In this document: positions 4,551-21,965 of the stretch, piece after piece
How the letters are laid out: each line of letters starts with the position of its first letter
How positions within the stretch are numbered: position 1 is the first letter of the stretch
Origin: Gemmata obscuriglobus
GTDB lineage: Bacteria > Planctomycetota > Planctomycetia > Gemmatales > Gemmataceae
NCBI RefSeq assembly: GCF_008065095.1
Contig: NZ_CP042911.1
Location: 1,680,001-1,712,000, forward strand
Length of the DNA stretch: 32,000 bases
Direction: 5' to 3'
Program-made: the position numbers and the translations under genes
The notes under the pieces: model-generated
What the model saw: the letters and a program-made list of their open reading frames with translations, nothing else
Database searches by the model: none
What the model was told of the DNA's origin: nothing

Positions 4551-6134
4551 ATGTCGTTGCACCCCTACGCTTTTGGACCGCCCGACCCGCCGCCGGTCCC
4601 GATACCCATGGCCACCGGCGCGGGTTCGGATGAGGCCAACCTGGCGGTCCTCGTGATCATGCTGTTCCTGCTCGTGGTCGCCTATTTCGGCCGCCGCCGG
4701 CTGTCCCGCACCGCCCACGGGACCGCGGCATGGATGACCGAACGTGAGCTCCGGCGCTGGGGCCTTTACGGCCGGCGGGGGCTCGTGATCGGACGATCAC
4801 AAGCCGGAAGACTACTAAGAAATACAATATACGTACATACGTTAATTATAGGTGGAACGGGCAGCGGCAAGGGGATCGGTCTCATCCTACCGATCCTGCT
4901 GGAGTACCGCCGCGGCTCCGTGGTCGTGTTCGACACCAAGGGCGACCTGTACCAGATCACCGCCCGCCGGCGCCGTAGGCTCGGTCCGGTGGCCCGGCTC
5001 AACCCGTTCGGGACCGGGGCGCGGTGGAACCCGCTCGACACCATCCCCCCGGGCGACCCGCTGCTGATCGACAACGTGCGGAGCATGGCCTGCGGTCTCG
5101 TGGTCGCGAGTGTGAAGGCCGTGGATCCCCACTGGGACGGGAAGGCCACGCAGCTGGTGGCCGCGGTCCTGACCTTGGTCGCGATCAAGTTCCCCGCTGA
5201 CAGCCGGAACCTGAACAGCGTCTACGAGACCATCTGCGATCCGGAGCTGCTCCGCTCCGCCGCCGAGGCGCTCCGCGCGATGGGAGGCTTTCCGGGCAGC
5301 CAGGGCGCGGCCCTGGGGAGCTTGTTCGATCGCGGGGGAACTCTCACCAAAGAAGGGACTGGGGTGGTCTCCACCGCTCTGCGGCACCTGGACTTCCTCG
5401 CCAGCCCGGCGGTCGCCGCCTCGGTGGCGGCCAGCGACATCGACCCGCGTGAGTTCTTGCGCGCGGGGGGCACGCTGTACCTGACGATCCCCGAGAGCCA
5501 GCTCGCCGCGCAACAGGGGCTGCTGAGGCTTTGGACCTCGACGCTGATGCGCATCCGCGGCGGCGCGGACGGCGAGTGCCTCATGCTGCTCGATGAGGCC
5601 AGCGCCCTGGGCGCGCTCCCGGCCCTTGAGGAGGCCCTTGTGCGCGGCCGGTCTTCGGGGTTGCGGTTACTGCTGGCCTATCAATCGTGTGCGCAGGTTC
5701 AGGCCGCTTTCCCGGAGAAACCGACGCTCATCTTCGACAACACCTCGGCCCACATCTACCTCGGGGCCGCGAGCCTCGAGACCGCGGAACGGATCTCCAA
5801 GAGCCTCGGCAACTTCACGCAGGCGGTCAGCTCCTACGCGGACAACTGGAGCCGGACCGACCCCCAGGACGGGGCGGGGAGCACCACCTGGGGCGGTTCG
5901 GAGAACACGTCCGTGCTGGGTCGCCCGCTGCTCTACCCGGACGAGGTGCTCCGGCTGCCCGTGGACCTGCTTATCGCGTTCGTGGCGGGGCTGCCGGGCC
6001 CGATCCTCGCACGACGGATCCAGTATTACGCTGATCGACATTACCGAAGGATCCTACGGCCGTGGCGGGGGCCGGTGATCGCGCTCCTCGTCGCTGCCCT
6101 GGTCGTTGCCGCGGCGGTGCTGGCCGCCCGGTAG
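4551..6134 (+). CDS. type IV secretion coupling protein, VirD4/TraG family
   Basis: 527 aa with an N-terminal TM 'LAVLVIMLFLLVVAYF'. Walker A context 'LIIGGTGSGKGIGLILPILLEYRRGSVVVFDTKGDLYQIT' and Walker B context 'LMLLDEASALGALPALEEALVRGRSSGLRLLLAYQSCAQV' both follow the VirD4/TraG pattern. Confidence 0.85.
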   Translation: MSLHPYAFGPPDPPPVPIPMATGAGSDEANLAVLVIMLFLLVVAYFGRRRLSRTAHGTAAWMTERELRRWGLYGRRGLVIGRSQAGRLLRNTIYVHTLIIGGTGSGKGIGLILPILLEYRRGSVVVFDTKGDLYQITARRRRRLGPVARLNPFGTGARWNPLDTIPPGDPLLIDNVRSMACGLVVASVKAVDPHWDGKATQLVAAVLTLVAIKFPADSRNLNSVYETICDPELLRSAAEALRAMGGFPGSQGAALGSLFDRGGTLTKEGTGVVSTALRHLDFLASPAVAASVAASDIDPREFLRAGGTLYLTIPESQLAAQQGLLRLWTSTLMRIRGGADGECLMLLDEASALGALPALEEALVRGRSSGLRLLLAYQSCAQVQAAFPEKPTLIFDNTSAHIYLGAASLETAERISKSLGNFTQAVSSYADNWSRTDPQDGAGSTTWGGSENTSVLGRPLLYPDEVLRLPVDLLIAFVAGLPGPILARRIQYYADRHYRRILRPWRGPVIALLVAALVVAAAVLAAR

Positions 6135-8951: not shown

Positions 8952-9224
8952 GTGCTTACCGTGCGCGAGGCGGCGGAACGGGCCGCCGTGTCGGAGTCGC
9001 TGATTTATGCTTGGTGTGCCGACGGCACGCTGCCGCACATGCGCCTCGGCCGGAAGGGGAAGCGGGGCACGATCCGCATCCGCGTCGAGGACCTGGACGG
9101 GATGATGGCCGCGTTCAAGGTGTCGGGTCCTTCGGCTTCCGCCCCGGCTTCTTCGGGTTCACCGGCTTTGCCCTTTTCCGAGTTGAACTCTCAGCGGCTT
9201 GCGAAGGCATGGAGGCGGGGTTGA
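8952..9224 (+). CDS. excisionase/AlpA-like HTH (HTH_17-type) DNA-binding protein
   Basis: GTG start 5 nt after 'ggagc'. 'LTVREAAERAAVSESLIYAWCADGTLPHMRLGRKGKRGTIRIRVEDLDGMM' fits the excisionase-family HTH pattern. The last ~33 codons are antisense to the integrase-gene remnant, so they may be a fortuitous extension. Confidence 0.65.
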   Translation: MLTVREAAERAAVSESLIYAWCADGTLPHMRLGRKGKRGTIRIRVEDLDGMMAAFKVSGPSASAPASSGSPALPFSELNSQRLAKAWRRG

Positions 9225-9225
9225 T
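9115..9225 (-). pseudogene. displaced 3'-terminal fragment (last 36 codons plus stop) of a tyrosine-recombinase gene
   Basis: The reverse strand reads INPASMPSQAAESSTRKRAKPVNPKKPGRKPKDPTP*. The intact integrase C-terminus at 18647..18760 reads INGVSVPLQAVEGSTRKRAKPVNPKKPGPKPEDVPQL*. My hand nucleotide alignment gives about 81 of 100 identities, with a 46-nt core carrying one mismatch. Similarity stops abruptly at 9225/9226. Confidence 0.75.
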
Positions 9226-9330
9226 ATTATATGTATTAAATTTAATAAATTAAGATTACAAAATATGCTTGATACACGTCAAAAATATCTCATAATATCG
9301 TAGTTATTTTAAATATGCTTATTTAGATCG
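9226..9330. other. AT-rich non-coding junction block
   Basis: 'attatatgtattaaatttaataaattaagattacaaaatatgctt...' stands out against a ~70% GC background. It starts exactly where the integrase-remnant homology ends. Confidence 0.7.
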
Positions 9331-9912: not shown

Positions 9913-9920
9913 CCGCGACG
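9913..9920. repeat. target-site duplication (left copy) CCGCGACG of the ISAs1-family IS
   Basis: An identical 8-mer directly abuts both inverted repeats (9913..9920 and 11173..11180). Confidence 0.7.
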
Positions 9921-11172
9921 CCAGGGCCGTTCCGTTATTCACTTTGAGGGATGCCGATAAGTTTGTGTGCGTACTCGGGGTGTAACTGGAGCCATTCGAG
10001 TGCTTCGGGTGTGCTGCGTGCCGGAACGTTACCCAGCAGGTGGATGGCGGCGTTGCGGAGCGCGGCGAGCACCTGCGGCGCGGCCCCCTTGCGGACCCGG
10101 CACGCATCCTCGCGCAGGGTCACATCCCGCACGTAATGGAGTTGGTTCTCGATGTGCCAGTGCGATCGAACCCAATCCAGAAGTGCTCGTGCGTCGGCCC
10201 GCTCGGGCGGTAAGCTGGTGATCCCGTGCACCACCTCCACCGTGGTCGCGCCGTTCGTGGTCCGGGTGCGGGTCATCCGGAACCCCTGCTTGAGCCCCTT
10301 CCACCGGTCGTGGGCGGTCACGATCGGGGTGGCCCGCAGGGTCCGCTTCTCGATCCGCCCGTGCCCCTTGTCCACCGTTGTCGCCTGGCGCCCCAGTTGC
10401 TCGGGCGTTGGGACCGGCTCGGGGGGAAGTAGCCGCCGCGATCCCTCGGGCGGCGTCCTCGAACCCGAGCCCGGCCTCGATGCTGGCCACCAGCCCCGGT
10501 TGGTTGTCCTTGGCCACCAGCACGTAATCCGCACCGCCGGCGATCACCGCCGCGGCCACGTCCCGCTGGCAGAACATCGCGTCCCCGGTGAGTACCGACC
10601 CGGCTACCGGTAGGATGCCCAGCAGCGCGAGGGCCGCCTTGTGCTCGTTGGTCTTGGCGTCCACCCGCACCTGGGCCAGCACCGCGTGGGCCGCCGGGGC
10701 GTACGCGGCCACCAGGTGCTGGCCCGGCACTTGGCCGTCCCGGCTGCCGCGCAACGTCTTGCCGTCCAAAGCGATGTGCGTCCGGGCCACGGGGCCGACG
10801 CGCCCGTCGAGCCATCGGGTCAGGGCCGCTTCGAGTTGCTGGGGATCGAACCGGCGCAGGGTCCGGGACAGGGTCGACGCGGCCGGGGTCTTGCCGCGTC
10901 GGAACCCGAGCGCGTGAGCCAGCGGGAACCCGTGCTGGCGCCCGAACCGAGCGATCCCCTGGAGGCTCGTGCGCCCCATCAGCAGGGCCAACGTGACCAA
11001 CCCGAGCACCGCCGGCAGCGGGTGAATCAGGCCCTGCAACCCGCGCGGGTCCGGGATCGTTGACAACTCCTCATACAGCGAGCGCGCGGGCATCGAGCAC
11101 CTCGGGCCGAAGGAGTTCCCCATCTATCTAACAAACCCGCTCGCGCCAAGATGAAATAAGGAACGGCCCTGG
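9921..11172 (-). mobile_element. ISAs1-family insertion sequence (about 1.25 kb)
   Basis: The left terminal inverted repeat is CCAGGGCCGTTCCGTTATTCA. The reverse complement of the right end is CCAGGGCCGTTCCTTATTTCA. The element is flanked by the 8-bp direct repeat CCGCGACG and encodes an ISAs1-type transposase. Confidence 0.8.
9935..11123 (-). pseudogene. ISAs1-family (H-repeat-associated type) transposase, frameshifted
   Basis: The N-terminal ORF 10029..11123 carries '...IPDPRGLQGLIHPLPAVLGLV...ALDGKTLRGS...DAKTNEHKAAL...TGDAMFCQRDVA...DYVLVAKDNQP'. The C-terminal ORF 9935..10534 carries 'DKGHGRIEKR...HWHIENQLHYVRDVTLREDACR'. The frames switch at a G6 run (10421..10426). Removing one G joins '...AATSP' to 'EPVPTPEQLGRQATTVDKGHGRIE'. 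Confidence 0.8.
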
Positions 11173-11180
11173 CCGCGACG
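11173..11180. repeat. target-site duplication (right copy) CCGCGACG
   Basis: See the left copy at 9913..9920. Confidence 0.7.
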
Positions 11181-11310
11181 CGACCTCCTCAACACGCTTC
11201 TTGCGGCTACCGGGTTGATCGGGTACAACATTACTACATGGAGATTCACTTTTCCGAGTGATCCGTTCTGCCTCGTTGGCCGAAGCTCGGTCTGGGGGCT
11301 GCTCGTTTCC

Positions 11311-12063
11311 ATGCCAGATTACCACTTCCGGGAGGTATCGTTGCGCTCGCTGCGTCACGCTCTGGTAGCGGTCGAATCGTTCTTCCTGCACGACTGGTTC
11401 GTGCCGTCGGCGGTCGAGGCCATCCCCAGTAACAAGCCATTGAGAGAACTGGTCGAACGCGACCTCCTATGGCCGCTGCGCCAAGACGTTGTGGGGCGAT
11501 TGTCTGCCAGGTTCTTGCTGGTCGGCCTGCTTACTGCCGGCCTGAGCGCAGCGTTGTCCCGGGGTGACTTGCTGACACATGTTTCGGGCAGCGAGTTGCT
11601 TATCCAAACGGCGACACTGGGAACCAGTGTCGCCGTGTGCCTCGTGACCTTAATCGCGCTGGGAGTTTTCGAACTCGTCGTTCCGACGCACGTGGGGCGG
11701 GCCTCCGTCCTCGGTTATTTCGACGGCTCGACTCGCAAAGGCAATCCGGTCGGAGACTGGCTGTACAACGCTCTGCTTTCTGTCAAGCTAGGTAACTTAG
11801 GGGCGGTGATACCGTACTACATTAACGCCTCACGGGAGCACTCGTTCAGCCCCGAGAGTAGGGATGAACTCAGACGAGTGGACGCTGCCGTCCGGAATGC
11901 AGTCGAAGGAATCCAAGCCGCACCAAAGTGGAACTCGAAAGTGTTCGCAGAGGTAGTCGGGGAGGTCACCTACTCGCGTTGCATGTGGCATTTGGTGATG
12001 TACCTGGCCGGAGTCGCGGCGAATCTTTTCACGGTTGCCGCATTCCGGTTGCCCCCGCACTGA
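11311..12063 (+). CDS. multi-pass membrane protein, unknown function (first gene of the low-GC cargo block)
   Basis: ORF 11215..12063; I prefer the first ATG at 11311 because the track start is TTG. Hydrophobic segments: 'ARFLLVGLLTAGLSAAL', 'LGTSVAVCLVTLIALGVFELVV', 'HLVMYLAGVAANLFTVAAF'. The start codon is uncertain. Confidence 0.5.
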   Translation: MPDYHFREVSLRSLRHALVAVESFFLHDWFVPSAVEAIPSNKPLRELVERDLLWPLRQDVVGRLSARFLLVGLLTAGLSAALSRGDLLTHVSGSELLIQTATLGTSVAVCLVTLIALGVFELVVPTHVGRASVLGYFDGSTRKGNPVGDWLYNALLSVKLGNLGAVIPYYINASREHSFSPESRDELRRVDAAVRNAVEGIQAAPKWNSKVFAEVVGEVTYSRCMWHLVMYLAGVAANLFTVAAFRLPPH

Positions 12064-12086
12064 TTACACGCCTGTGAGGCCGACAG

Positions 12087-13433
12087 ATGAAGAAGAACGC
12101 CCTGACTCTCCTGCTGCTGGCCGGCGTCGTGGCGCTCGGCGTGTGGTCCTGGACTTCGCGGGACGAAGCGAAACGCGCCGCAACAACCCGAGAACAGTAC
12201 GACCGCGAGGTCCAACAGTGGATGAGCGGGACGGTCGAAACGCTCCGCAAACAGGCCAGCTCACAGGCAGATACCAACCGCGTCTTGCTGGACTCGGTGC
12301 GGGCGCAGACGAAGCAGATCGACGACCTCCGCAAGCAGGTCGAAAGGCAACTTGTGCCGGCACAGGTCAGGAAGCAGATGATGGACAAGGGCGGCAACGG
12401 CCTGACCGAGGATGAGAGCAAGCAGATCAAGGACGACACTGACACCGCCAAAAAACACACCGCCGAGGTGGAAGACTCAGACGCACGCAAGAAGCTCGAC
12501 GACGCGATAAGGAAGGCTGATGAGATCGCCAAGAACCCGATAAAGTCGTTGGAGTCAAAAGACGCGCAGGACGCGTTGAAGAAGACGATAGACGAACTCA
12601 AAGCGGAAGAGGAGAAATCGAGAAAGCTGATCGAACAGCTCGGCAAGCAGCGACAAGAGCAAGAAAAACAAATCAAGGAGCTAAAGAAAAAGAAAGACCG
12701 TACGCCGGAGGAGGAGGAGCGGCTCAAAAAGCTCGAACAAGAGAAACAGGAGGTCGAGAAAAAGCTCGAGGCTGAGCGAAAGAAGAACGAAACCACCCGC
12801 CTCGTACTCACGCTCCTGAAGAACCTGCTAAACGCGGCAGCCCTCATCGCTTTCGCGAGCGGGAATCCTGAACTCGCCTTCGCGCTAATGACACTGGCGA
12901 ACGCCATACCGTCGGGTGGTGGTGAAGGGCCTGGTAGTGGCGACAAAGACGGCACCAAGGATGGAACCAAGGACGGCACCAAAGACGGCACCAAAGACGG
13001 GGATAAGGATGGCGACAAGGGTGACTATCCCGATCCGCCCAACCCGCCGTCTACAAGCCCGCCGCCCACGACCACGCCGCAAAAAGTTGAGAACCCGAAA
13101 CCGGACGAGAAACCGCAGCCCGCAAAGAACAGCGGCAATGTGGATGGCGGCGGTGGTGACTACGAACTGCTGCTGCAAGGCAAAGAACTTTCACGCCGGA
13201 AAGCAGGCGGCTCGGCCTGGGACTTCTTCATGCAGGTGGACGATAGCGGGGTCGAGAAACTCAAGACTGGGGTGGGAGTGGTCATCGCTATGACCGATGG
13301 TGACGGCATCCGTCGGGTCTATGTCGAGTCGCCAAAAGGCTCGAAGACATACTGGATGATCGAGGTGCGTGAGGAAGGCCGCGGCAAGATGACAATGCGG
13401 CCAATCAGTGCCAAGGACTTGCCTGAACGCTGA
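12087..13433 (+). CDS. TolA/TonB-like modular envelope protein (N-terminal TM anchor, K/E-rich coiled coil, Gly/Asp/Lys repeats, Pro-rich linker, small C-terminal domain)
   Basis: ATG 7 nt after 'gagg'. Anchor 'MKKNALTLLLLAGVVALGVWSW'. About 200 aa are charged helical sequence, for example 'EQEKQIKELKKKKDRTPEEEERLKKLEQEKQEVEKKLEAERKK'. The protein also has '(DGTK)4(DGDK)2', the Pro-rich 'YPDPPNPPSTSPPPTTTPQKVENPKPDEKPQP', and a ~95-aa C-terminal domain. The similarity to TolA/TonB is architectural only. The SHLS-type His motif is absent from the TM. Confidence 0.7.
   Translation: MKKNALTLLLLAGVVALGVWSWTSRDEAKRAATTREQYDREVQQWMSGTVETLRKQASSQADTNRVLLDSVRAQTKQIDDLRKQVERQLVPAQVRKQMMDKGGNGLTEDESKQIKDDTDTAKKHTAEVEDSDARKKLDDAIRKADEIAKNPIKSLESKDAQDALKKTIDELKAEEEKSRKLIEQLGKQRQEQEKQIKELKKKKDRTPEEEERLKKLEQEKQEVEKKLEAERKKNETTRLVLTLLKNLLNAAALIAFASGNPELAFALMTLANAIPSGGGEGPGSGDKDGTKDGTKDGTKDGTKDGDKDGDKGDYPDPPNPPSTSPPPTTTPQKVENPKPDEKPQPAKNSGNVDGGGGDYELLLQGKELSRRKAGGSAWDFFMQVDDSGVEKLKTGVGVVIAMTDGDGIRRVYVESPKGSKTYWMIEVREEGRGKMTMRPISAKDLPER
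12942..13025 (+). repeat. 12-nt tandem coding repeat (DGTK x4, DGDK x2 and flanking units)
   Basis: The repeat 'gac ggc acc aag/aaa' and its variants are read directly. On the opposite strand it produces the spurious SLVP-repeat ORF. Confidence 0.85.
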
Positions 13434-13475
13434 CCGGTGAACGACCGGCCCGCGCACCTCAGAGTAGACTGCCAC

Positions 13476-14309
13476 ATGGGACGGCCTCGCGAGATAAACG
13501 TGTTCTCGACGTCTTTCCTTGACCTGCTGTCGTGCGGGATGGGGGCGGTGATCATCCTGCTCATCATCTTCTTGAGTAGGCTGCGGATTGAGCCACGCGA
13601 CGCGGCCGCATTTGCGTCGGTCTCGTTCAGAGTCGATTACGGCGACATTCCAATTGTGGCCCACCGTGAGGTCTGGACCTTGGACGGCAAACCACTCCTC
13701 GCGATTCGACCAAGCGGCGATAGCGCCAAGCCGTTCGAGTATACGGTAGGTTCGGCTCCGACGTTCGTGGGGTTGGAGAGCGAGGCTGTGCCGAGGGTGG
13801 GGGGGGCTTCGAACCTGGACGGGGCCGACGTGACAAGCAACTTTTGGCGAGACCCGCTGGACGCGCCAAAGCTGACGTTTCCCGGCCGCGCGTCTGGAGG
13901 TGTGGTCTGCAGGCTCACGGACCACATGCCTACCGGACGGCGGCAGACATCAATATCCATCCGCGATTGGAACTCGCCGAGGGCTGTCACCTACTCTGTC
14001 CATCGGGGTTTGATCTCCGCATCTTCTGCGCATCACTTTGATGACAATCTCAACTTCGTAGGCGGTCCAGCTCCAAACGGTAGAGGGTGGGTGTCGCATA
14101 CCTACGCAGGTCGAGAAGAAGTTATATACACATTGCCAACTAGAGTGAGCGTGTCTATATACACAACAAACTCAGCCGTGTCATTCAACAGGGACATTTA
14201 CACGTACCAGTTCGTAAAATCGCCGAACGGCACATTTTCGATATCGATCATTCTAGATCCCGATGCAGAGCCGGGTACTGACCCGGTGAAGCAGGTGGGG
14301 TGGCCATGA
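13476..14309 (+). CDS. MotB/ExbD/TolR-type single-pass protein, paralog 1 (stator B-subunit-like TM with conserved Asp; novel ~230-aa periplasmic part)
   Basis: From the ATG at 13476 the protein reads 'MGRPREINVFSTSFLDLLSCGMGAVIILLIIFLS'. Compare E. coli ExbD 'DINVTPFIDVMLVLLIIF' and the MotB/PomB pattern 'TFADLMT'. The Asp sits in the TM helix. The remainder is beta-rich with no motif I recognise. Confidence 0.65.
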   Translation: MGRPREINVFSTSFLDLLSCGMGAVIILLIIFLSRLRIEPRDAAAFASVSFRVDYGDIPIVAHREVWTLDGKPLLAIRPSGDSAKPFEYTVGSAPTFVGLESEAVPRVGGASNLDGADVTSNFWRDPLDAPKLTFPGRASGGVVCRLTDHMPTGRRQTSISIRDWNSPRAVTYSVHRGLISASSAHHFDDNLNFVGGPAPNGRGWVSHTYAGREEVIYTLPTRVSVSIYTTNSAVSFNRDIYTYQFVKSPNGTFSISIILDPDAEPGTDPVKQVGWP

Positions 14310-14836
14310 GAACCCGAGAGATCACTGTCTTCAGCACCTCGTTCCTCGACCTACTCTCCTGTGGTCTGGGGGCTGTGATCCTGCTCTGCCTCGTTTTCGC
14401 CGCCTCGAAAATGTCTCAGGGTAGGGTGAAGGGCGAGACAACCCTAATTCGTGTTCGCGTCGTGCCGCACACGGGCAGCGCACCTCCGAAGCTCGGCGTT
14501 TACGTCGAACTCGGCGATGTCGGCTGCCGGCTGAGCGCGGGAGAGCCGCCGCTGGCTGTGGGGGGAGTGAAGTTGAGCATCATCCCACAAGATCTCGGCG
14601 CGAACGAGTATACCGTCGTGCTGACCGGAGAGCGATTCGACCGCACCCACCGCGTGGGTGTATACATCCACGACTACGCTGACGCCCCCCGCCAAGGGAT
14701 CGACGTGGAAGTCGAACGGTACGGGAAAGGTGCATCGACCAAGGACAAGGTGCAGTTGAAACCGGGTGAGGCGGCCCACCGAAGTTTCACGCTTGAGGGG
14801 GTCGAGTCAGATACCTACAGTTTCCGATGGGAATGA
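14306..14836 (+). CDS. MotB/ExbD/TolR-type single-pass protein, paralog 2
   Basis: The ATG overlaps the stop of the upstream gene (ATGA). 'MRTREITVFSTSFLDLLSCGLGAVILLCLVF' is nearly identical at protein level to the paralog 1 N-terminus but differs at many synonymous sites. The ~135-aa periplasmic part is unrelated to that of paralog 1. Confidence 0.65.
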   Translation: MRTREITVFSTSFLDLLSCGLGAVILLCLVFAASKMSQGRVKGETTLIRVRVVPHTGSAPPKLGVYVELGDVGCRLSAGEPPLAVGGVKLSIIPQDLGANEYTVVLTGERFDRTHRVGVYIHDYADAPRQGIDVEVERYGKGASTKDKVQLKPGEAAHRSFTLEGVESDTYSFRWE

Positions 14837-14843
14837 GAGCGTG

Positions 14844-15707
14844 ATGAGGCGTTGGAGGCGGACATTGACCTTCACTGGCGTCGTCCTCGCCGGGGCGACT
14901 GTCGTCGGTCCATTCACCGTTACCACGGCCCAGCCCCCAACCACAAGTAGTTCACAACTTGCCCAGCGTTTCACGACACTGAACGGGTACTTGGACCCCA
15001 AGGCCAAGCAACTCGGCTACTATTCGAGCATGTCTGACTTTCGGGTCTACCTGAGCGACGCGAACGATCAGGTCTGGCTAGAGTGGGGGCCGCGCTCCGA
15101 CTGTCAGCGGATCGACCCCGTCACAAGCCAGCAGTTCTGGAAAGACATGCTGAACAACACTTATCCGGGAGAATTGAGGCCGGCCCACAAGTACGCTTCG
15201 TTTCTCGATGTGGTGTCCAAATTCGGCCAAGGCGGGAAGCAGATCGGGTACCGTGAGTCGCAGGCGGCAGATGCCTTTTTCATCTTTCAGAAAGACACGC
15301 GTTCGGTATTAACCGCTCGTGTGGCCTCCCCGCTGCTTTCTCTGCCATACGACCTAGACGTGTTCGAGGACGGCATCGCCTCCGAAGCCCTGCAACCGCT
15401 ACTCACTCTCGTGGCGGCCGAGACGCACTCGGCCCGCTGGATCGGATTGGGCAGGGAGGGGGTAGCGTTCGCCACGGCGAGGGAGTACAGGATTGCCGAG
15501 TGGCGGTCGGGTGCACTGCGCCCGACCCGATCGCACCTTATTGCGCGCTGCGGACTTCCTGGTTGGGTCAGGACGCTCGGAGGAGTGGACCCAGCGGTGG
15601 CGGGCATGGATGCCGTCGCCGCGCTCGCAGTCACCTCGCCAGATGTGTGGCACTCACACCCTTACAGCTACCCGTCCGATCCGGATGTGTGGTTCTTCGG
15701 AGACTAA
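14844..15707 (+). CDS. secreted or periplasmic protein of unknown function
   Basis: ATG at 14844 (GTG at 14841 is also possible), 5-8 nt after the upstream stop. Signal-like 'MRRWRRTLTFTGVVLAGATVVGPFTVTTAQP'; the RR pair could be Tat-like, with low confidence. Confidence 0.6.
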   Translation: MRRWRRTLTFTGVVLAGATVVGPFTVTTAQPPTTSSSQLAQRFTTLNGYLDPKAKQLGYYSSMSDFRVYLSDANDQVWLEWGPRSDCQRIDPVTSQQFWKDMLNNTYPGELRPAHKYASFLDVVSKFGQGGKQIGYRESQAADAFFIFQKDTRSVLTARVASPLLSLPYDLDVFEDGIASEALQPLLTLVAAETHSARWIGLGREGVAFATAREYRIAEWRSGALRPTRSHLIARCGLPGWVRTLGGVDPAVAGMDAVAALAVTSPDVWHSHPYSYPSDPDVWFFGD

Positions 15708-15710
15708 CCT

Positions 15711-17780
15711 ATGTCAAGCGGAGTTGCGCAGTCCGGTGGCGGGGAGGACCCAACTGGCGAGCCGACTCGCAAAAGTCTTCGCGAGCGTTGGTCGCAAATC
15801 GTCGGCAAACTGAAGCGTCGTCCCACTACGCCCCCAGAATCCAATCTTCAGCCCCCGCCTCCACCAAACCGGGTGGTCAGAATGCTGACCGGGGGCAGCC
15901 TGCTCGGGCTATTGATCTTGTGCGTTGTCAGTTGGAGCCTCGCCTGGCTCACGTTTTTCGCTCTGGGGCTGATCTTCAATTCGACACTCTATTCAGACAT
16001 CCGCAGTTTCAAATCGTTTTCCCCAGCGGACAAACTAGAATGCTACGCACGAGCTATCGGTTATCCGCCGTCAGACCTAAAATCGTTCGCCGAACCGGCG
16101 TCAGCCACAGTCCTGAGTCGATCGGTGCTATCTCCGACGCTCACCAAAGAGGGCAGGGAAGAGTTGCAGAAGTTGGCGGTTATGCAACCGTACCGTGTGG
16201 TGGGACACACTCAACTGACCAGTGCTCGCGAAGGGAAGGAGCAGTGGCATAAGGTGGGCTCGGAAGTGGGGTTGCCACAGCCCGACGGCCCGTCTTTTGC
16301 CGTTGTTTGGCGGAGCGGTGATGGGCCGCCGGCAGGGGCCGCCGATGGCGACAAGCCAAAGCCGAACGCCAAGGTGGAAATGCCTCTGGTGTACGTCTTG
16401 GAGATTAAGGCAGTAGAGGTGGGGTTACAGTTCAAAATCGTTGCCCGGTATTTTCCCGTCATCGACGGCAAGGAGCAGCCGTCCGCGGTGAAGGAAGCTT
16501 TCGTCGTGCTCGACCGGCCAACGTACTGGTTCGCGGCGCTACAACCCTGTGCGGTCAACCACTCGGCCGGCGAGTTAGCGTCGCGCTTCGTCGATCAGAT
16601 GAAGGCTGATGTCCGAGGCCGGCCGAACCTGGTGAACATCGTTCTCAAGGATCGGGCGAAGGTGCAAGAGGTCGAGACGTTCATTCAACAAGTGATTCTC
16701 AGGAAACTGGGAAAGGAATTGCCATCAGGCGGCAGTGAGCAAGGGTTGCGGACTGACCGTGAATACGAAACGCTGGAGCAGCGAACGGCTTGGCCGCGCC
16801 GGCTTCAAGGTAGCGATGTTCTCGGCGTCATCCAGTTCCTGACGGTCGTTGCGTTCTGGGCGGCGGTCGTCATTTACTTCGCCCAATGGCGTGTCGTGGA
16901 GAACCAGCGCGACTACCTCGAGAGCGGTGAGCTGTTCCCGACGGACGACACTACGGTTGATCACGATCATGTCGAAGCGCGAGTCCGCAGCCTCGAAGCA
17001 TTGCGGCAGAAGTACCGCGAGGGCCAAGGCAGAGACAGCGTGATTGCCTGCATCCCGCTTGAGATCGCGTACAGTGGCTACTGCGGGCTGATCGCGGCGA
17101 ATATGCGCGCCGAAGGTGTGCCGGCCTTCGTCCAGACTCGCGTGTCGCTCTTCTTGGAGCGAGCCGGTAGCCGTCAGTGGCTGTTCCGGTTCTTGGTCTG
17201 GCTCATCCCCTCGATCGGGTTTGTCGGCACGGTCATTGGCATTGGAGACGCGCTTCTCGGCACAGGCGACGTGCTCTCTACCAACCCGCTACAGCAACAG
17301 TCCGCCATTCAAGCTATCGCGGGAAAGCTCGGCACAGCATTTGATACTACGTTTGTGGCGCTGATACTTAGCATCGTTACAATGTTCATGATTGGCTCGA
17401 TTCAGAAGAGCGAGGAGGAACTCATCCAACGTGCAGCCGAGCGGACGCTGAACTCGCTCATCGACCCGAACCAAGTTTCGGCGCCGCCCCATGCCTCATT
17501 ACAGCCGCTCCACCTGCAACCCGCCACGGCGGTCACCGCCGCACCGAACCCGTCTGCACCGCGCCGGCCGCAGCAACCGGTGGTACTTCGATTGCGTGAG
17601 ATAAGGCCGTTGCGTCGGCGTTACTCTGCCGACGCAATCGCGATTGTGGTCGGTATTACCATCACGTTAGGCAGTTTGACGATCTACTTCGGGAAGGACT
17701 CTGCCGCAGCTTTGGCGGTTGAGTCACAGATAAAAGCACAGTGGGCCAATTTGTCCAAGTATGCCAAACAACGCGAGTGA
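15711..17780 (+). CDS. MotA/TolQ/ExbB-family proton-channel protein with large N- and C-terminal extensions
   Basis: 689 aa. The family signature lies in the C-terminal half: 'WLFRFLVWLIPSIGFVGTVIGIGDALLG' (PxxGxxGTVxG helix) and 'KLGTAFDTTFVALILSIVTMFMIGSI' (A..TT..G/A helix). The preceding TM is 'VLGVIQFLTVVAFWAAVVIYF'. An extra N-terminal TM hairpin 'LLGLLILCVVSWSLAWLTFFALGLIF' is followed by a ~270-aa domain. There is also an extra C-terminal TM 'AIAIVVGITITLGSLTIYF'. Confidence 0.7.
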   Translation: MSSGVAQSGGGEDPTGEPTRKSLRERWSQIVGKLKRRPTTPPESNLQPPPPPNRVVRMLTGGSLLGLLILCVVSWSLAWLTFFALGLIFNSTLYSDIRSFKSFSPADKLECYARAIGYPPSDLKSFAEPASATVLSRSVLSPTLTKEGREELQKLAVMQPYRVVGHTQLTSAREGKEQWHKVGSEVGLPQPDGPSFAVVWRSGDGPPAGAADGDKPKPNAKVEMPLVYVLEIKAVEVGLQFKIVARYFPVIDGKEQPSAVKEAFVVLDRPTYWFAALQPCAVNHSAGELASRFVDQMKADVRGRPNLVNIVLKDRAKVQEVETFIQQVILRKLGKELPSGGSEQGLRTDREYETLEQRTAWPRRLQGSDVLGVIQFLTVVAFWAAVVIYFAQWRVVENQRDYLESGELFPTDDTTVDHDHVEARVRSLEALRQKYREGQGRDSVIACIPLEIAYSGYCGLIAANMRAEGVPAFVQTRVSLFLERAGSRQWLFRFLVWLIPSIGFVGTVIGIGDALLGTGDVLSTNPLQQQSAIQAIAGKLGTAFDTTFVALILSIVTMFMIGSIQKSEEELIQRAAERTLNSLIDPNQVSAPPHASLQPLHLQPATAVTAAPNPSAPRRPQQPVVLRLREIRPLRRRYSADAIAIVVGITITLGSLTIYFGKDSAAALAVESQIKAQWANLSKYAKQRE

Positions 17781-17815
17781 CTGGCCGAGGACTTCCGGTC
17801 ACCACCAGTCGCGAG

Positions 17816-18331
17816 TTACGGCCCTTTGAACTCGACTGTAATCTCCCGCTCGGGCGTGGAGTTCGGCTTGTCGGCCCCGTAAAACTTCAGCCGGAACTTC
17901 TTCAGCGTCTCGGGGGCGATCTTCTCTTTCGTCTTTTCGTCTGTCGTGGCCGGGCCGCAGAGGATACACCCGTCCGAGTGGTCCGGTTTGTTTCCGGCGT
18001 GGAACTGAATGAACTCCCACTTCTTCCCGCCGGCAGTGAACGTGTCCAGTTCGATCAGGAAGTCGCCCTTTTTGCTCAGGACGCCGCCCGGCCCCTGAAC
18101 GTGGTTTTTGCCGGACTCGTATCGAAGGTGAGCCTTGTAGGTGCCGGCCGGGACGTGCTTGTCAGCCCGCTCGTAAACCGTACCCACCGCCTCACCGTTC
18201 ACGGAGAGCTTTCCGACGATGAGTCCGTCCTTGGTCTCGCCCCTCGTCACCACCACCTTGAACGGGTCGGCGGCCGGGGCTGCGGAAGCAGCAAAGAGGA
18301 TGACCCACGCGGAGAGCGAGCACTTGCCCAT
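17816..18331 (-). CDS. secreted protein with a His...Ser-x-Gly-Cys motif (DUF5675 / YkuD-like, tentative)
   Basis: 171 aa. ATG preceded by 'aggggg'. Signal peptide 'MGKCSLSAWVILFAASAAPAA'. 'GKLSVNGEAVGTVYE...VPAGTYKAHLRYES...FIQFHAGNKPDHSDGCILCG' resembles the DUF5675 pattern and the L,D-transpeptidase H..S.GC motif. It is convergent with the cargo operon. Confidence 0.55.
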   Translation of the reverse strand: MGKCSLSAWVILFAASAAPAADPFKVVVTRGETKDGLIVGKLSVNGEAVGTVYERADKHVPAGTYKAHLRYESGKNHVQGPGGVLSKKGDFLIELDTFTAGGKKWEFIQFHAGNKPDHSDGCILCGPATTDEKTKEKIAPETLKKFRLKFYGADKPNSTPEREITVEFKGP

Positions 18332-18404
18332 GATGGCCCCCTGACTTGAGGTGGTAGCTGAAAGCGATCATACGGCGCGGGCGGGAAGAGTGAAGACGGG
18401 CGAC

Positions 18405-18495
18405 TCTTAATTGATTGCTTTATATACACTCTTAAATTTTTAATACACCACAATTATTGGAATTTCTATTGGTATTCTATATGTGTAAATTATCA
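18405..18495. other. AT-rich non-coding block (right junction of the low-GC region; probable promoter region for 17816..18331)
   Basis: 'ttaattgattgctttatatacactcttaaatttttaatacaccacaattattggaatttctattggtattctatatgtgtaaattatc'. Confidence 0.6.
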
Positions 18496-18646
18496 CGCAT
18501 TGAAAACGACGCGGCGGTTGCAACGCAATCGCGGTCGGCGTGCTCCCGCTGGTAAATAAAGAGTTAAGCGACCGATCTTATCGCAGTCGCGTCCGCCCTT
18601 TGCGGGTTGTGGCTTCGGCGTGAGGCTATTTCGCGTTTGACGTCGC

Positions 18647-19771
18647 TCAAAGTTGGGGTACATCCTCTGGCTTTGGTCCCGGCTTCTTTGGGTTCACCGG
18701 CTTTGCCCTTTTCCGAGTTGAACCCTCCACAGCTTGCAAAGGCACGGAAACCCCGTTGATCCTGTTCACCGCATCTTTCAGGTGCTGGTGCTGATCCGCG
18801 AGGTGCACGTACACCTTGGAAATCATCTCCTGCGACGTGTGCCCCATCAGTTCCGCCAATGTCTGGCCATCAACGCCCGCGAGAATCGCCCGGGTTCCAA
18901 ATCCGTGGCGGCACAAATAGGCACACACGTCCTTGGGCAGTTCCAACTTCCTCTTGATTCGCCATACCTGCAGCCGAAGGGCGTTCATCGTCCACGGCAG
19001 GCCTTCGGTGTTCAGGAAAACATGCGTGTGCCCGTTCCCTCGGAGCCGGCCGGTGATCTCCTTCAACGGCCCGGTTAGGTAGATCACGCGCGGCTTGCCC
19101 GACTTCTTCCCGGTCTTGTGCTCTATCAACACCCAGCGGTCCTCTTGAACCTGATCCCATGTCAGTTCCCGCACCTCCTTCGGCCGCGCGCCGGTAAGGT
19201 AGAGAGCGAGCAGCAAATCCTTCAACGGTCCGCCAGCGTTCTCGTGCATCTTCCAAAACTCGACGTCGGTGATCGCCCGCTGTCGGGGCCGCGGCTTCGG
19301 GTTCTTCATCCCATCGATCGGGTTCTCGGGCAGAAGTTTCCGTTCTGCTGCCCACGAGAACACCCTCCCTGCGGCCTTCCGCGCGTTGTAGACGGTTGTC
19401 TCGCCCCATTCCTCCGCCTCGACCTTGGGGTCGATCCAGCGGTCGATGTGGTATGGCTTCAGCTCGCGGGCGAGCACTTCGCCGCACGCCTCGGCGAAGA
19501 GCTGGCAGTAATACTTGTTCAGGCGGTGGGTGTCGGCAGCGAAGTGGACGCGGCTGTGATGGAGGAACGCCTCGATCACGTCGGCGGTTCGACTCCCCAC
19601 CGCTTCCGGAGCGGTGCGGCGGAGTTTCCGCAGCTCAATGTATTTCTCTTCCGCGAGGTGCCGGTGGTGGTCGTCGTTCGGCCCTTGCACGAGGCGGGTC
19701 TTCTCGCCCCCGAGGGTGATCATCCACCAGCCGATGTCGGACCTGTACCAAACCTTTGCCGGGCGTGCCAT
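18647..19771 (-). CDS. int: tyrosine recombinase / phage-type integrase
   Basis: 374 aa. ATG preceded by 'aggggg'. C-terminal catalytic motifs 'ALYLTGARPKEVRELTW', 'AYLCRHGFGTRAIL' and 'LAELMGHTSQEMISKVYVHL' give the R...HxxR...H...Y pattern. Confidence 0.85.
   Translation of the reverse strand: MARPAKVWYRSDIGWWMITLGGEKTRLVQGPNDDHHRHLAEEKYIELRKLRRTAPEAVGSRTADVIEAFLHHSRVHFAADTHRLNKYYCQLFAEACGEVLARELKPYHIDRWIDPKVEAEEWGETTVYNARKAAGRVFSWAAERKLLPENPIDGMKNPKPRPRQRAITDVEFWKMHENAGGPLKDLLLALYLTGARPKEVRELTWDQVQEDRWVLIEHKTGKKSGKPRVIYLTGPLKEITGRLRGNGHTHVFLNTEGLPWTMNALRLQVWRIKRKLELPKDVCAYLCRHGFGTRAILAGVDGQTLAELMGHTSQEMISKVYVHLADQHQHLKDAVNRINGVSVPLQAVEGSTRKRAKPVNPKKPGPKPEDVPQL
18661..18760. repeat. direct repeat partner of 9126..9225 (integrase 3' end)
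   Basis: Hand alignment gives about 81 of 100 identities, with a 46-nt core (9143..9188) carrying one mismatch. Both copies end in GTTGAT. Confidence 0.75.
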
Positions 19772-20024: not shown

Positions 20025-21965
20025 GTGTGCCAGGCATGTTGCGTATGAGGAGGTGGAAGTCCTCCGCGGGCCGTGGTGAGCGGAACCGCAAGGCGAGGCA
20101 AGGGTGCCCGTCGCGAGGCGGAATCTGAAGGAAGCCGAAGCCCCCAGTCGGGAGCCGACGAACAGGAACCGGATATCAGGCCGGCGTGGCGGGGTCAGCG
20201 GGCAACGGACCGCGAAGCCCAATCTCACTCGGACGCACACGCGGGTAAATCCGGCGGTCGCTCGACGAAGCAACGCAACTTACCCTGGGAGATCTCCCGA
20301 TCCGCGAAGGCGATCTTCGCACCGCGACCGGTAACGGTGGGGGGATGGTTCGGGAGAAGTCAGCCGAGGCCGTAGTAACTCGTCCGTCCGGTGGAGCGAT
20401 CCACGGGGGAGGCACCCACACCTCGTAAGGACGAACGAAGGGCCGAACTTAATGTGCCAAGGAGCAGCCGGAGCCGACTCGATGGGCGTGAAGCGACCGC
20501 AAGGCCGGCCGGACCAACGGACCCTCTTCGAGGGCTCGGAGGCCGACCGGCGCCACGACACAACCGGCGAAGGCGGAACCGGAGCGGGTGTGGTCGAGGA
20601 GTCACAAGCGTCTGCGGCGTTGGAGCCGTCACGCGCCTTGACGGATCGTCTGATGGAGGAGGTGTGCCAGCGAGGCAATCTCAACCAAGCTTACTCTCGG
20701 GTGAAGGCGAACAAAGGGGCACCGGGAATCGACGGGATGACCGTCGAGGACTCGCTCCGCTGGATCGCCGAGCACAAGCAGGAACTGCTGTCGAGTCTGC
20801 TCGACGGGTCGTATCGTCCGAGTCCGGTGCGTGGGGTTTTGATCCCGAAGCCGGGCGGAGGCGAGCGGCAGTTAGGGATTCCGACGGTGGTGGATCGTCT
20901 GGTTCAGCAGGCGATTCTGCAAGTGCTGACGCGTTTGTTGGACCCGACCTTTTCGGAATCCAGCTACGGCTTCCGTCCCGGCAAGAGCGCTCACCAGGCG
21001 CTGTTGAAGGCGAAGGAGTACGTGGCGGATGGTCGAGCGATTGTGGTGGACGTGGACCTGGAGAAGTTTTTCGACCGGGTGAACCACGACATCCTGATGG
21101 CCCGGCTGGCGCGTCGTGTGTCGGACACGCGCTTGTTGCGGATCGTGCGTCGCTTCCTGGAAGCGGGGCTGATGCAAGACGGTGTGTGTGTCGCACGTCA
21201 CGAGGGGACGCCGCAAGGGGGTCCGCTGTCGCCGCTGCTGGCGAATCTGCTGTTGGACGACCTGGACCAGGAACTGGAGCGCCGGGGCCACACCTTCTGC
21301 CGGTACGCGGATGACTGCAACATTTACGTGCGGTCGGAGGCGGCCGGTCGTCGGGTGATGGCGTCGGTCGTGACGTTCCTGGAGGCGAAACTCAAGTTGC
21401 GCGTCAATCGTGAGAAGAGTGCGGTGGCACGGGTCGAGGAGCGGAAGTTCCTCGGCTATCGCCTCCTGAGCGACGGGCGGTTGGGGATCGCGCCGGCGAG
21501 TCTGGAGCGGGCCAAGGACCGCATCCGGGCGATCACCCGTCGGAATCGGGGCATCGGCCTCGAGCGGATGGTCAGGGAACTCAACTCGTTTCTGACCGGC
21601 TGGGTGACGTATTTTCGCCACGCGGCGATGAAAAATCACCTGACCGAGCTGGACGGCTGGGTTCGCCGGAAGCTGCGGTGCGTGCGGTTGAAGCAGTGCA
21701 AGCGAGTGAAGCCGATGGTAGATTTCTTCGCTCGGCAGGGCGTGTCGCTGCGTCAGGCGTGGTGTACCGCGTTGTCGGGGAAGGGCTGGTGGCGGAAGTC
21801 GGGGACGCCGGTGGCGAACCAGGCGATGCCATCCAGTTGGTGGGAGACGCTCGGATTGGTGAATCTCGTCGGTCGGTACGAGAAGTTGCAAACACGTTAG
21901 GAACCGCCGGATACGTAAGTACGTCCGGTGGTGTGGGAGGACGGCGGGGCAATCCCGCCTCCTAC
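20025..21965 (+). mobile_element. group II intron (bacterial class-C-like; 3' end +/- about 6 nt)
   Basis: The 5' end GTGTG lies immediately after the terminator hairpin. The RT/maturase ORF sits in domain IV. Domain V-like ccgccgga-tac-GTAA-gta-(cg bulge)-tccggtgg lies at 21904..21931 with a GNRA tetraloop. A domain VI-like hairpin at 21935..21963 is followed by ...AC. Confidence 0.75.
20452..21900 (+). CDS. ltrA: group II intron reverse transcriptase/maturase (no HNH endonuclease domain visible)
   Basis: 482 aa with 'KANKGAPGIDGMTVED', 'IPKPGGGERQLGIPTVVDRLVQQA', 'SYGFRPGKSAHQAL', 'TPQGGPLSPLLANLLL', 'FCRYADDCNIYV' (YADD) and a maturase X region 'LNSFLTGWVTYFRHA'. Confidence 0.9.
   Translation: MCQGAAGADSMGVKRPQGRPDQRTLFEGSEADRRHDTTGEGGTGAGVVEESQASAALEPSRALTDRLMEEVCQRGNLNQAYSRVKANKGAPGIDGMTVEDSLRWIAEHKQELLSSLLDGSYRPSPVRGVLIPKPGGGERQLGIPTVVDRLVQQAILQVLTRLLDPTFSESSYGFRPGKSAHQALLKAKEYVADGRAIVVDVDLEKFFDRVNHDILMARLARRVSDTRLLRIVRRFLEAGLMQDGVCVARHEGTPQGGPLSPLLANLLLDDLDQELERRGHTFCRYADDCNIYVRSEAAGRRVMASVVTFLEAKLKLRVNREKSAVARVEERKFLGYRLLSDGRLGIAPASLERAKDRIRAITRRNRGIGLERMVRELNSFLTGWVTYFRHAAMKNHLTELDGWVRRKLRCVRLKQCKRVKPMVDFFARQGVSLRQAWCTALSGKGWWRKSGTPVANQAMPSSWWETLGLVNLVGRYEKLQTR

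What the first reader, a model, noticed from the sequence alone, without database searches (positions are those of the whole stretch)
11311..18331. Island-borne, non-canonical MotA/ExbB + 2x MotB/ExbD-like + TolA/TonB-like gene cluster: candidate undescribed proton-motive-force-driven envelope system
Six tightly packed same-strand genes (gaps of about 3-42 nt, one ATGA overlap) plus one convergent gene form a block with clearly lower GC than the flanks. The 689-aa protein carries the MotA/TolQ/ExbB channel helices ('IPSIGFVGTVIGIG', 'AFDTTFVALILSIV'). Two paralogs carry a MotB/ExbD/TolR-type TM with the invariant Asp ('VFSTSFLDLLSCG'). The 448-aa protein has a TolA/TonB-like layout: TM anchor, long charged helix, Pro-rich spacer and a small C-terminal domain. 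The cluster also encodes a secreted protein, a multi-pass membrane protein and a secreted H..S.GC-motif protein. The set fits none of the known contexts I can name. It lacks TolB/Pal, any TonB-dependent receptor, flagellar genes and gliding genes. Unlike Zorya, it has no ZorC/D/E-like nuclease or helicase genes, and the long helical tail is on a separate protein instead of on the MotA-like subunit. The cluster sits between IS elements and an integrase, so it looks like accessory cargo. Possible roles are phage or conjugation defence, or envelope sensing and remodelling. The function is inference.
Basis: partly seen in the sequence, partly recalled or inferred. Interest (0 to 1): 0.85.

Follow-up and report, generated by a model that had tools for sequence, protein, structure and literature searches.

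The report
Rare TolQ-like proton motor gene cluster
A mobile island in the planctomycete Gemmata obscuriglobus carries a rare six-gene cluster that most likely builds a proton-driven membrane motor of the Tol/Ton/flagellar-stator kind with unusual partner proteins; what the motor does is still unknown.

Summary
Six co-directional, tightly packed genes (11311-17780) form a lower-GC block inside a mobile region of Gemmata obscuriglobus. The 689-aa product is a true MotA/TolQ/ExbB-family protein: Pfam scores above threshold, and the AlphaFold2 model matches TolQ/ExbB structures. It has an extra N-terminal helix, a new ~270-aa periplasmic domain and an extra C-terminal helix. Two neighbouring proteins share only an N-terminal membrane helix with an invariant Asp.

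That helix motif occurs beside related TolQ-like genes in 57 of 80 genomes. About half of the sampled partners (18 of 36) carry VWA domains. This matches the "TPH-vWA + TolQ-like" motors predicted in silico in 2025 (PMC12204202).

The window cluster is a rare, divergent branch of that class. It has no VWA domain. It has a conserved periplasmic partner that is fused to the short Asp-helix protein in one relative. It also has a coiled-coil membrane protein and a multi-pass membrane protein. The gene order recurs at about ten sites with unrelated flanks.

The 448-aa protein is only superficially TolA/TonB-like. The DUF5675 gene is not part of the set. No named defence system matches. The biological role, defence or envelope mechanics, is unresolved.

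The parts
11311..12063 (+). g1: 250-aa multi-pass membrane protein (GobsT_14390) with 3 hydropathy peaks. It is an accessory member of the set.
   Evidence: ORF; hydropathy. No family hit. Homologs sit at the same position in L085 (phmmer E=3e-16) and, on profile iteration, in L090. Identified.
12087..13433 (+). g2: 448-aa protein. It has an N-terminal hydrophobic anchor (residues 5-23), a ~200-aa charged coiled coil, a hydrophobic helix-GNP-helix hairpin (~239-285), a Gly/Asp/Lys-rich repeat and Pro-rich linker, and a ~95-aa C-terminal domain.
   Evidence: Tandem 12-nt repeats at 12939-13022. No TonB_C or TolA hit. BLASTP against E. coli TolA gives E=0.19, in the charged helix only. Positional and architectural equivalents occur in L085, L091, L097 and L004 (two copies), and as two split genes in L090.
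13476..14309 (+). g3: the 'long' Asp-helix protein (277 aa; 290 aa from the GTG at 13437). It has an N-terminal transmembrane helix with Asp16 (codon 13521-13523) and a ~230-aa periplasmic domain with no VWA, OmpA or ExbD match.
14306..14836 (+). g4: the 'short' Asp-helix protein (176 aa). It has Asp15 (codon 14348-14350) and a ~130-aa periplasmic domain with alternating-hydrophobic, strand-like sequence. Its start overlaps the g3 stop (ATGA).
   Evidence: Orthologs at the second position in L085, L087, L090, L091, L092, L097 and L004.
14844..15707 (+). g5: 287-aa protein with a signal-peptide-like N-terminus and no known domain. It is the conserved partner encoded just upstream of the motor gene, and in L085 it is fused to the C-terminus of the g4 ortholog.
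   Evidence: The AF2 model was unusable (pLDDT 37.6). The profile finds no PDB relative.
15711..17780 (+). g6: 689-aa TolQ/ExbB-class A subunit (GobsT_14440). It has a basic cytoplasmic N-terminus and an extra helix TM0 (~64-88). A new periplasmic alpha/beta domain covers residues ~90-365 (nt 15978-16805). The TolQ-like core covers residues ~367-585 (nt 16809-17465). A Pro-rich basic tail and an extra C-terminal transmembrane helix (~642-660) follow.
   Evidence: Pfam PF01618. AF2 model with pLDDT 82.4 and pTM 0.80. Foldseek top hits are TolQ and ExbB (prob 1.0). hhalign against E. coli TolQ aligns T507 with T145 and T547 with T178. Hydropathy. The periplasmic domain has no Pfam or PDB hit.
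9128..9225 (.). Left copy of a 98-nt imperfect direct repeat (83% identity) that bounds the ~9.5-kb segment holding the IS element, g1-g6 and the DUF5675 gene.
18663..18760 (.). Right copy of the 98-nt direct repeat. It lies in the 3' end of the integrase gene (18647-19771, - strand).
   Evidence: integrase Pfam hit.

Best explanation
g1-g6 form an operon-like cluster encoding a variant ion-driven '5:2-type' membrane motor of the TolQ/ExbB class.

**Inferred assembly**
- g6 forms the pentameric proton-channel ring. This is inferred from its family and fold.
- g3 and g4 take the place of ExbD/TolR/MotB as a heterologous pair. Their N-terminal helices, each with the invariant Asp, would sit in the g6 pore next to the conserved Thr507/Thr547 ring.
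- Proton flow through this Asp/Thr site would drive rotation or conformational cycling of the g3/g4 pair.
- The output is periplasmic. It would pass through the non-VWA periplasmic domains of g3 and g4 and through g5, which is physically fused to g4 in one relative. The ~270-aa periplasmic domains of g6 would surround the emerging pair.
- g2 (anchor, coiled coil, membrane hairpin, small C-terminal domain) and g1 (multi-pass) are conserved accessory membrane components of unknown role.

**Status of the claims**
- The cluster is a rare, horizontally moving accessory module. It is a divergent sister of the predicted 'TolQ-like + TPH-vWA' motors.
- Shown here: family and fold of g6, conservation of Asp and Thr, the gene-order family, the g4-g5 fusion, and the mobile context.
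- Inferred: 5:2 stoichiometry, the heterodimer, proton coupling, topology, and the direction of force output.
- The biological task is not established.
For: **g6 is a TolQ/ExbB-class subunit**
- Pfam MotA_ExbB scores above the gathering threshold.
- The AF2 model (pLDDT 82.4) matches TolQ and ExbB cryo-EM chains first (prob 1.0, TM up to 0.62). PomA/MotA and ZorA rank lower.
- The TolQ pore threonines T145 and T178 align to the invariant T507 and T547.

**g3 and g4 are the pore partners**
- No ExbD, TolR or MotB gene is in the cluster.
- g3 and g4 share a helix whose Asp is invariant in 36 of 36 sequences. MAFFT aligns it with TolR D23, ExbD D25 and MotB D32.
- An HMM of that helix finds 76 ORFs within 4 kb of related TolQ-like genes in 57 of 80 genomes. 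It finds only 3 in an equal amount of more distant DNA. Nineteen loci have two or more.
- 18 of the 36 partners carry VWA domains. This matches the TPH-vWA class of PMC12204202.

**The gene set is conserved**
- The order g(1)-g2-g3-g4-g5-g6 is kept in L085, L090, L091, L097 and L004. Parts of it are kept in L001, L087, L088, L089 and L092. The flanks are unrelated.
- Long and short Asp-helix proteins keep their positions.
- g4 and g5 are fused in L085.

**The set is accessory**
- It lies in a low-GC block between an IS element and an integrase, inside 98-nt direct repeats.
- All ten relatives that were looked up are singletons.
- Only 12 proteins reach E<=1e-30 among 1.84 billion representatives.
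Against: - No complex model could be run, so the pentamer, the heterodimer and the Asp/Thr geometry are unverified.
- The Asp-helix profile shows no detectable sequence similarity to E. coli ExbD, TolR or MotB. Pfam ExbD and MotB_plug do not hit.
- TolQ E173 is not conserved in position. The family has D545 three residues later instead.
- The folds of g3, g4, g5 and g2 are unknown. The g5 model failed.
- No target at the wall or outer membrane is identified.
- Homology of g2 across loci rests mostly on architecture. Sequence evidence exists only for L090.
Confidence: 0.6

Rival explanations
1. The cluster is an anti-phage or anti-plasmid defence system. The motor's periplasmic domains sense envelope perturbation, as ZorAB is thought to do. 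The response is either membrane depolarisation through the unplugged channel or an effect mediated by g1/g2. No nuclease is involved.
For: - The setting is mobile, low-GC cargo.
- One relative (L090) lies 1.2 kb from a patatin gene with E1-E2/JAB and CapP genes, and next to a type I R-M system.
- Antitoxin genes lie near L091 and L097, and a caspase-like gene lies near L091.
- The family is very sparse and patchy, and flanks differ at every site.
- g6 gives weak PADLOC ZorA hits at E~6e-4.
Against: - No PADLOC or NCBIfam defence model matches any gene above threshold.
- No nuclease, helicase or other recognisable effector is present.
- Flanks of L004, L085, L086, L092, L097 and L001 gave no defence hits.
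- Only one clear defence-island neighbour was found.
- g6 is closer in fold to TolQ/ExbB than to ZorA.
Confidence: 0.25
2. The cluster is a divergent Ton- or Tol-like system. g2 acts as the TonB/TolA-type transducer that carries force to an outer-membrane receptor or wall-binding partner encoded elsewhere.
For: g6 has the TolQ/ExbB fold. g2 has an anchor, a long charged helix, a Pro-rich linker and a small C-terminal domain.
Against: - No His or SHLS-type motif appears in the g2 anchor or in its positional equivalents (sequences).
- g2 gives no TonB_C or TolA hit, and BLASTP against TolA gives E=0.19.
- An extra hydrophobic hairpin interrupts the g2 layout.
- No TonB-dependent receptor, TolB or Pal is recognised in the window or in the related loci.
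- The distribution is accessory, not core.
Confidence: 0.07
3. The cluster is part of the conjugative element's own machinery, for example energising mating-pair formation or surface exclusion.
For: A T4SS coupling protein (4551-6134), a ParB-like gene, an HTH_17 gene and an integrase lie in the same window.
Against: None of the related loci shows T4SS genes next to the cluster. The cluster sits in a separate insertion bounded by direct repeats together with an IS element.
Confidence: 0.05

Closest known systems
TolQ-like motors with heterologous pairs of TPH-vWA proteins (predicted in silico; Mol Biol Evol 2025, msaf138, PMC12204202)
   Same: - The TolQ-like A subunit shares the GFxGTVxGI and GTAFDTTF motifs.
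- No tolR or exbD gene is present.
- Two different neighbouring proteins have N-terminal helices carrying the same conserved motif (REIxVFSxSFLDL) and the invariant Asp.
- No function is known for either.
   Different: - g3 and g4 have no VWA domain.
- g6 carries an extra helix, a ~270-aa periplasmic domain and a C-terminal helix.
- Three further conserved genes (g1, g2, g5) are present.
- The family is very rare and island-borne.
ExbB-ExbD(-TonB) and TolQ-TolR(-TolA) motors
   Same: - They are the best structural match for the g6 core.
- The pore threonines are conserved.
- The partner has a single-pass helix with an Asp near the cytoplasmic end, preceded by an [ED]-I-N-[VI] stretch.
   Different: - The partners are not detectable ExbD/TolR family members, and there are two different proteins.
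- There is no SHLS-type transducer and no TolB, Pal or TonB-dependent receptor.
- TolQ E173 is not conserved in position.
- The cluster is accessory, not core.
Zorya ZorA-ZorB (anti-phage 5:2 motor)
   Same: A MotA-like subunit pairs with Asp-helix partners on mobile or defence DNA. g6 gives weak ZorA profile hits. Foldseek matches ZorA with prob 1.0 at E~0.06.
   Different: - There is no ZorC, ZorD or ZorE.
- g6 has no long cytoplasmic tail. Its extension is N-terminal and periplasmic.
- The partners lack a peptidoglycan-binding domain and are heterologous.
- The NCBIfam ZorA score is 11.6 against a cutoff of 500.
MotA-MotB / PomA-PomB flagellar stators
   Same: They share the MotA_ExbB superfamily and the logic of an Asp-bearing partner helix.
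   Different: - No MotB_plug or OmpA domain is present.
- No flagellar genes are recognised among the scanned ORFs.
- The fold match is weaker than to TolQ/ExbB.

Membership tests
MotA/TolQ/ExbB proton channel family (PF01618) | Profile HMM score above the curated threshold | tested here: met
   35.4 bits against a 22.9 cutoff, E=1.1e-8, residues 465-574. Precomputed Pfam agrees. NCBI names it a 'MotA/TolQ/ExbB proton channel family protein'.
MotA/TolQ/ExbB proton channel family (PF01618) | TolQ/ExbB-type fold: TM1, cytoplasmic helical bundle, TM2-TM3 hairpin | tested here: met
   The AF2 model has pLDDT 82.4. Foldseek top 40 hits are TolQ and ExbB chains with prob 1.0 and target TM-scores of 0.37-0.62.
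MotA/TolQ/ExbB proton channel family (PF01618) | Conserved pore threonines (TolQ T145/T178, ExbB T148/T181) | tested here: met
   hhalign aligns T507 with TolQ T145 and T547 with T178. Both are invariant in the 12-member family.
MotA/TolQ/ExbB proton channel family (PF01618) | Pentameric ring around a dimer of partner helices (5:2) | not testable with these tools
   No multimer prediction or experiment was available.
ExbD/TolR (PF02472) | Profile HMM match, including the periplasmic domain | tested here: not met
   g3 and g4 give no hit at E<=1. The helix HMM scores E. coli ExbD and TolR below zero bits.
ExbD/TolR/MotB (functional class) | Single N-terminal transmembrane helix with an essential, conserved Asp near the cytoplasmic end | tested here: met
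   The Asp is invariant in 36 of 36 sequences and in 9 of 9 close relatives. It is aligned with TolR D23, ExbD D25 and MotB D32. Whether it is essential was not tested.
MotB (MotB_plug PF13677 + OmpA PF00691) | Plug helix and peptidoglycan-binding OmpA-like domain | tested here: not met
   No Pfam hit in g3 or g4.
TolA/TonB force transducers | SHLS-type anchor motif with a conserved His | tested here: not met
   The g2 anchor is MKKNALTLLLLAGVVALGVWSW. It has no His, and none is conserved in the positional equivalents.
TolA/TonB force transducers | TonB_C or TolA C-terminal domain homology | tested here: not met
   No Pfam or NCBIfam hit. BLASTP against E. coli TolA gives E=0.19, in the charged helix only. 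The fold of the C-terminal domain was not predicted.
TPH-vWA + TolQ-like motors (PMC12204202) | TolQ-like gene next to Asp-helix (TPH) proteins, usually a heterologous pair, with no tolR or exbD | tested here: met
   g3 and g4 lie upstream of g6. The helix motif is shared with VWA-bearing partners in 57 of 80 related genome loci.
TPH-vWA + TolQ-like motors (PMC12204202) | VWA (von Willebrand A) periplasmic domain on the TPH proteins | tested here: not met
   g3, g4 and the scanned close relatives give no VWA hit, while 18 of 36 of the wider set do. The periplasmic part of g4 (~130 aa) is too short for a VWA fold. g3 has no DxSxS motif (read from the sequence).
Zorya | ZorA and ZorB profiles at threshold, plus ZorC/ZorD or ZorE | tested here: not met
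   PADLOC ZorA gives E=6e-4 over about 80 residues only. NCBIfam ZorA gives 11.6 bits against a cutoff of 500. No ZorB, C, D or E hits.

The most novel reading that the evidence does not exclude
g1-g6 are a new kind of mobile, proton-powered envelope machine. A caged TolQ-like ring turns a heterodimeric axle with novel periplasmic heads and a partner protein. The machine acts in conflict with phages or incoming plasmids without any nucleic-acid effector, for example by mechanically blocking entry or by controlled depolarisation.
Probability: 0.2. Interest if true: 0.85.

Novelty: new variant of a known kind. Interest (0 to 1): 0.62.

Why it matters
Only a few uses of 5:2 ion-driven motors are understood: flagella, Ton, Tol, gliding/T9SS and Zorya. 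This cluster adds a conserved architecture to that list. Its A subunit carries its own periplasmic domain. Its axle is made of two different proteins with new heads. A dedicated periplasmic partner is encoded alongside. It occurs in Gemmata obscuriglobus, a cultured planctomycete with several complete genome assemblies. It could therefore turn the purely in-silico "TolQ-like + Asp-helix pair" class into something testable, and it could show whether such motors serve defence or envelope mechanics.

Tried and rejected
**Approaches that failed or were blocked**
- The AF2 model of g5 from a 5-sequence alignment had pLDDT 37.6 and was unusable.
- Foldseek of the g6 model against viral structures found nothing significant.
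- Profile searches of the g6 periplasmic domain and of the g5 family against PDB and Pfam found nothing significant.
- phmmer of g3, g4 and g7 against PDB found nothing.
- Megablast of the block against plasmids found no match.
- The viral-contig scan found no relatives.
- The metagenome scan with a family-specific pattern found one locus only, which looks like the same organism as L001.
- Word-indexed protein searches returned only 2-3 proteins each.
- The promoter and terminator scan was uninformative.

**Ideas rejected**
- Membership of g3 and g4 in the ExbD, TolR or MotB families.
- g2 as a TolA or TonB homolog.
- g7 as a member of the system.
- Zorya membership.
- A phage origin.
Full report
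**Observation**

The + strand carries six tightly packed ORFs:
- g1, 11311-12063, 250 aa
- g2, 12087-13433, 448 aa
- g3, 13476-14309, 277 aa (an alternative GTG start lies at 13437)
- g4, 14306-14836, 176 aa
- g5, 14844-15707, 287 aa
- g6, 15711-17780, 689 aa

A convergent gene, g7, lies at 17816-18331 on the - strand. The g3 stop and the g4 start overlap as ATGA. GC is 0.57-0.61 over the block and 0.69-0.74 in the outer flanks.

**Source**

Exact-sequence look-ups place the genes in Gemmata obscuriglobus, as GobsT_14390 and GobsT_14410 to GobsT_14450 (the exact g2 sequence was not found in the collection). Public records call g6 a "MotA/TolQ/ExbB proton channel family protein", g7 a "DUF5675 family protein", and g1, g3, g4 and g5 "hypothetical". 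A 7.6-kb Logan contig equals window 11144-18719 except for one SNP, which gives T546A in g6.

**The motor subunit, g6**

- Pfam MotA_ExbB scores 35.4 bits against a cutoff of 22.9.
- An AlphaFold2 model built from 149 sequences has pLDDT 82.4 and pTM 0.80.
- Its best PDB matches are TolQ and ExbB chains (prob 1.0, target TM up to 0.62). PomA/MotA and ZorA follow at weaker E-values.
- hhalign against E. coli TolQ aligns the pore threonines T145 and T178 with T507 and T547. Both are invariant in the family.
- Unlike TolQ/ExbB, g6 has several additions:
  - a basic N-terminus;
  - an extra helix at ~64-88;
  - a confidently modelled alpha/beta domain at ~90-365, which should be periplasmic by the TolQ topology;
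  - a Pro-rich basic tail;
  - a further helix at ~642-660.
- The periplasmic domain has no Pfam or PDB relative.

**The Asp-helix pair, g3 and g4**

- The two proteins are alike only in their first 35-70 residues.
- Neither hits ExbD, MotB_plug, OmpA or VWA models.
- tblastn and an HMM of the shared helix show that the motif (REIxVFSxSFLDL...) lies beside related TolQ-like genes in many phyla. There are 76 hits within 4 kb in 57 of 80 genome loci. An equal amount of more distant DNA holds only 3 hits. Nineteen loci have two or more.
- The Asp is invariant in 36 of 36 sequences. MAFFT places it on TolR D23, ExbD D25 and MotB D32.
- The helix HMM does not detect those E. coli proteins. The likeness is therefore one of position and context, not of measurable sequence homology.
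- 18 of the 36 partners carry VWA domains.
- This wider group matches a 2025 in-silico description of TolQ-like motors with heterologous pairs of "TPH-vWA" proteins and no tolR/exbD. Its function is unknown (PMC12204202).

**A rare conserved gene set**

- An exhaustive HMMER search of 1.84 billion representatives gave 2445 hits at E<=1e-3. Only 12 reached E<=1e-30, and those are the ones that share the N-terminal domain.
- The contigs of these relatives keep the same gene order:
  - L085: g1, a g2-like gene, g3, a g4-g5 fusion, g6
  - L090: g1, g2 split into two genes, g3, g4, an uncalled g5-like ORF, g6
  - L091, L097 and L004: g2-like (two copies in L004), g3, g4, g5, g6
  - L087, L088, L089, L092 and L001: partial sets cut by contig ends
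- The long and short Asp-helix proteins keep their positions. This argues for a conserved heterologous pair.
- The L085 fusion links g5 physically to g4.
- In the eight further loci where the DNA downstream of the motor gene is present, no DUF5675 gene follows it, so g7 is a neighbour and not a member.
- All ten relatives looked up are singletons in a collection of 15 billion proteins.

**g2 is not a TolA or TonB**

- g2 has an anchor, a ~200-aa charged helix, a linker and a small C-terminal domain.
- The anchor has no His or SHLS motif.
- Nothing hits TonB_C or TolA.
- A conserved hydrophobic helix-GNP-helix hairpin, followed by a Gly/Asp-rich stretch, sits in mid-protein. In L085 this region is two clear transmembrane helices.

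**Context**

- An ISAs1/IS4-like element has inverted repeats at 9920-9946 and 11147-11173. Its transposase is split between two reading frames.
- A tyrosine integrase lies at 18647-19771.
- A 98-nt direct repeat (83% identity) at 9128-9225 and 18663-18760 brackets the IS element, g1-g6 and g7.
- Farther out lie a T4SS coupling protein, a ParB-like gene and a group II intron.
- One relative (L090) sits beside a patatin gene, E1-E2/JAB and CapP genes and a type I R-M system. Antitoxin genes or integrase fragments lie near L091 and L097. Other flanks gave no defence hits apart from a caspase-like gene near L091.
- PADLOC and NCBIfam give only sub-threshold ZorA hits for g6.
- No relatives were found on viral contigs or plasmids.

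**Interpretation**

The best-supported reading is a TolQ/ExbB-class ion-driven motor. An Asp-bearing heterologous pair (g3 and g4) replaces ExbD/TolR. Work is delivered in the periplasm through new domains and g5. The whole set is carried as an accessory, horizontally moving module.

Stoichiometry, coupling and topology are inferred. The task of the motor is unknown. A defence role is possible but rests on one clear defence-island neighbour plus the mobile setting.

No paper describing this six-gene family was found.

Noticed in passing
window 9128-9225 and 18663-18760: A 98-nt imperfect direct repeat (83% identity) brackets a ~9.5-kb segment holding the IS element, g1-g6 and the DUF5675 gene. 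The right copy is the 3' end of the integrase gene. The left copy overlaps the 3' end of an HTH_17 (excisionase-like) gene. This looks like att-type scars of an insertion or of tandem elements.
   Followed up: partly
window 9226-9330: A ~105-nt stretch is strongly AT-rich in a genome that is otherwise ~70% GC. It contains a repeated AAATATGCTT and lies immediately after the left repeat copy. Its function is unknown.
   Followed up: no
window 9920-11173: An ISAs1/IS4-like element has 27-nt terminal inverted repeats (9920-9946 and 11147-11173). Its DDE transposase is split into two overlapping frames (10029-11123 and 9935-10534, - strand). This is either a frameshift or a pseudogene.
   Followed up: partly
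window 17816-18331 (-): The secreted DUF5675 protein carries an H..S.GC motif and hits phrog_1501. A 2026 preprint (10.64898/2026.04.11.717860) groups DUF5675 structurally with C82 peptidases, which I take from memory to be the L,D-transpeptidase-type family. That suggests a peptidoglycan-acting protein. No DUF5675 gene follows the motor gene in the related loci where that flank is present.
   Followed up: partly
window 17346: This is the only difference between the window and the Logan contig from SRR5887612. The A/G change gives T546A inside the nearly invariant AFDTTF motif of g6 TM3.
   Followed up: partly
L085 5510-6895; L090 6162-7557: Two natural gene rearrangements occur within the family. 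In L085 the g4 and g5 orthologs are fused into one 461-aa protein. In L090 g2 is split into a coiled-coil gene and a gene for the hairpin, linker and C-terminal domain.
   Followed up: yes
window 20107-21900: A group II intron is present. Rfam D1-D4 domains match at 20107-20443, and a reverse transcriptase/maturase ORF lies at 20452-21900, just beyond the integrase.
   Followed up: partly
window 3367-6134: A ParB-like gene (3367-4512) and a T4SS coupling protein of the TraG/VirD4 type (4551-6134) suggest that the wider region is a conjugative or integrative element.
   Followed up: no
window 12939-13022: Tandem 12-nt repeats encode a (K/T)DG-rich stretch (GTKD x4, then GDKD) in the g2 linker. 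Relatives have Gly/Asp-rich runs at the same place.
   Followed up: partly
L090 13088-21840: A defence-island-like stretch lies next to one relative of the cluster. It holds a patatin gene, a fused E2/E1/JAB protein, a 373-aa protein with LmuA/DRT-like hits, an HTH gene with a CapP-like M78 peptidase, and type I R-M methylase and specificity subunits.
   Followed up: partly
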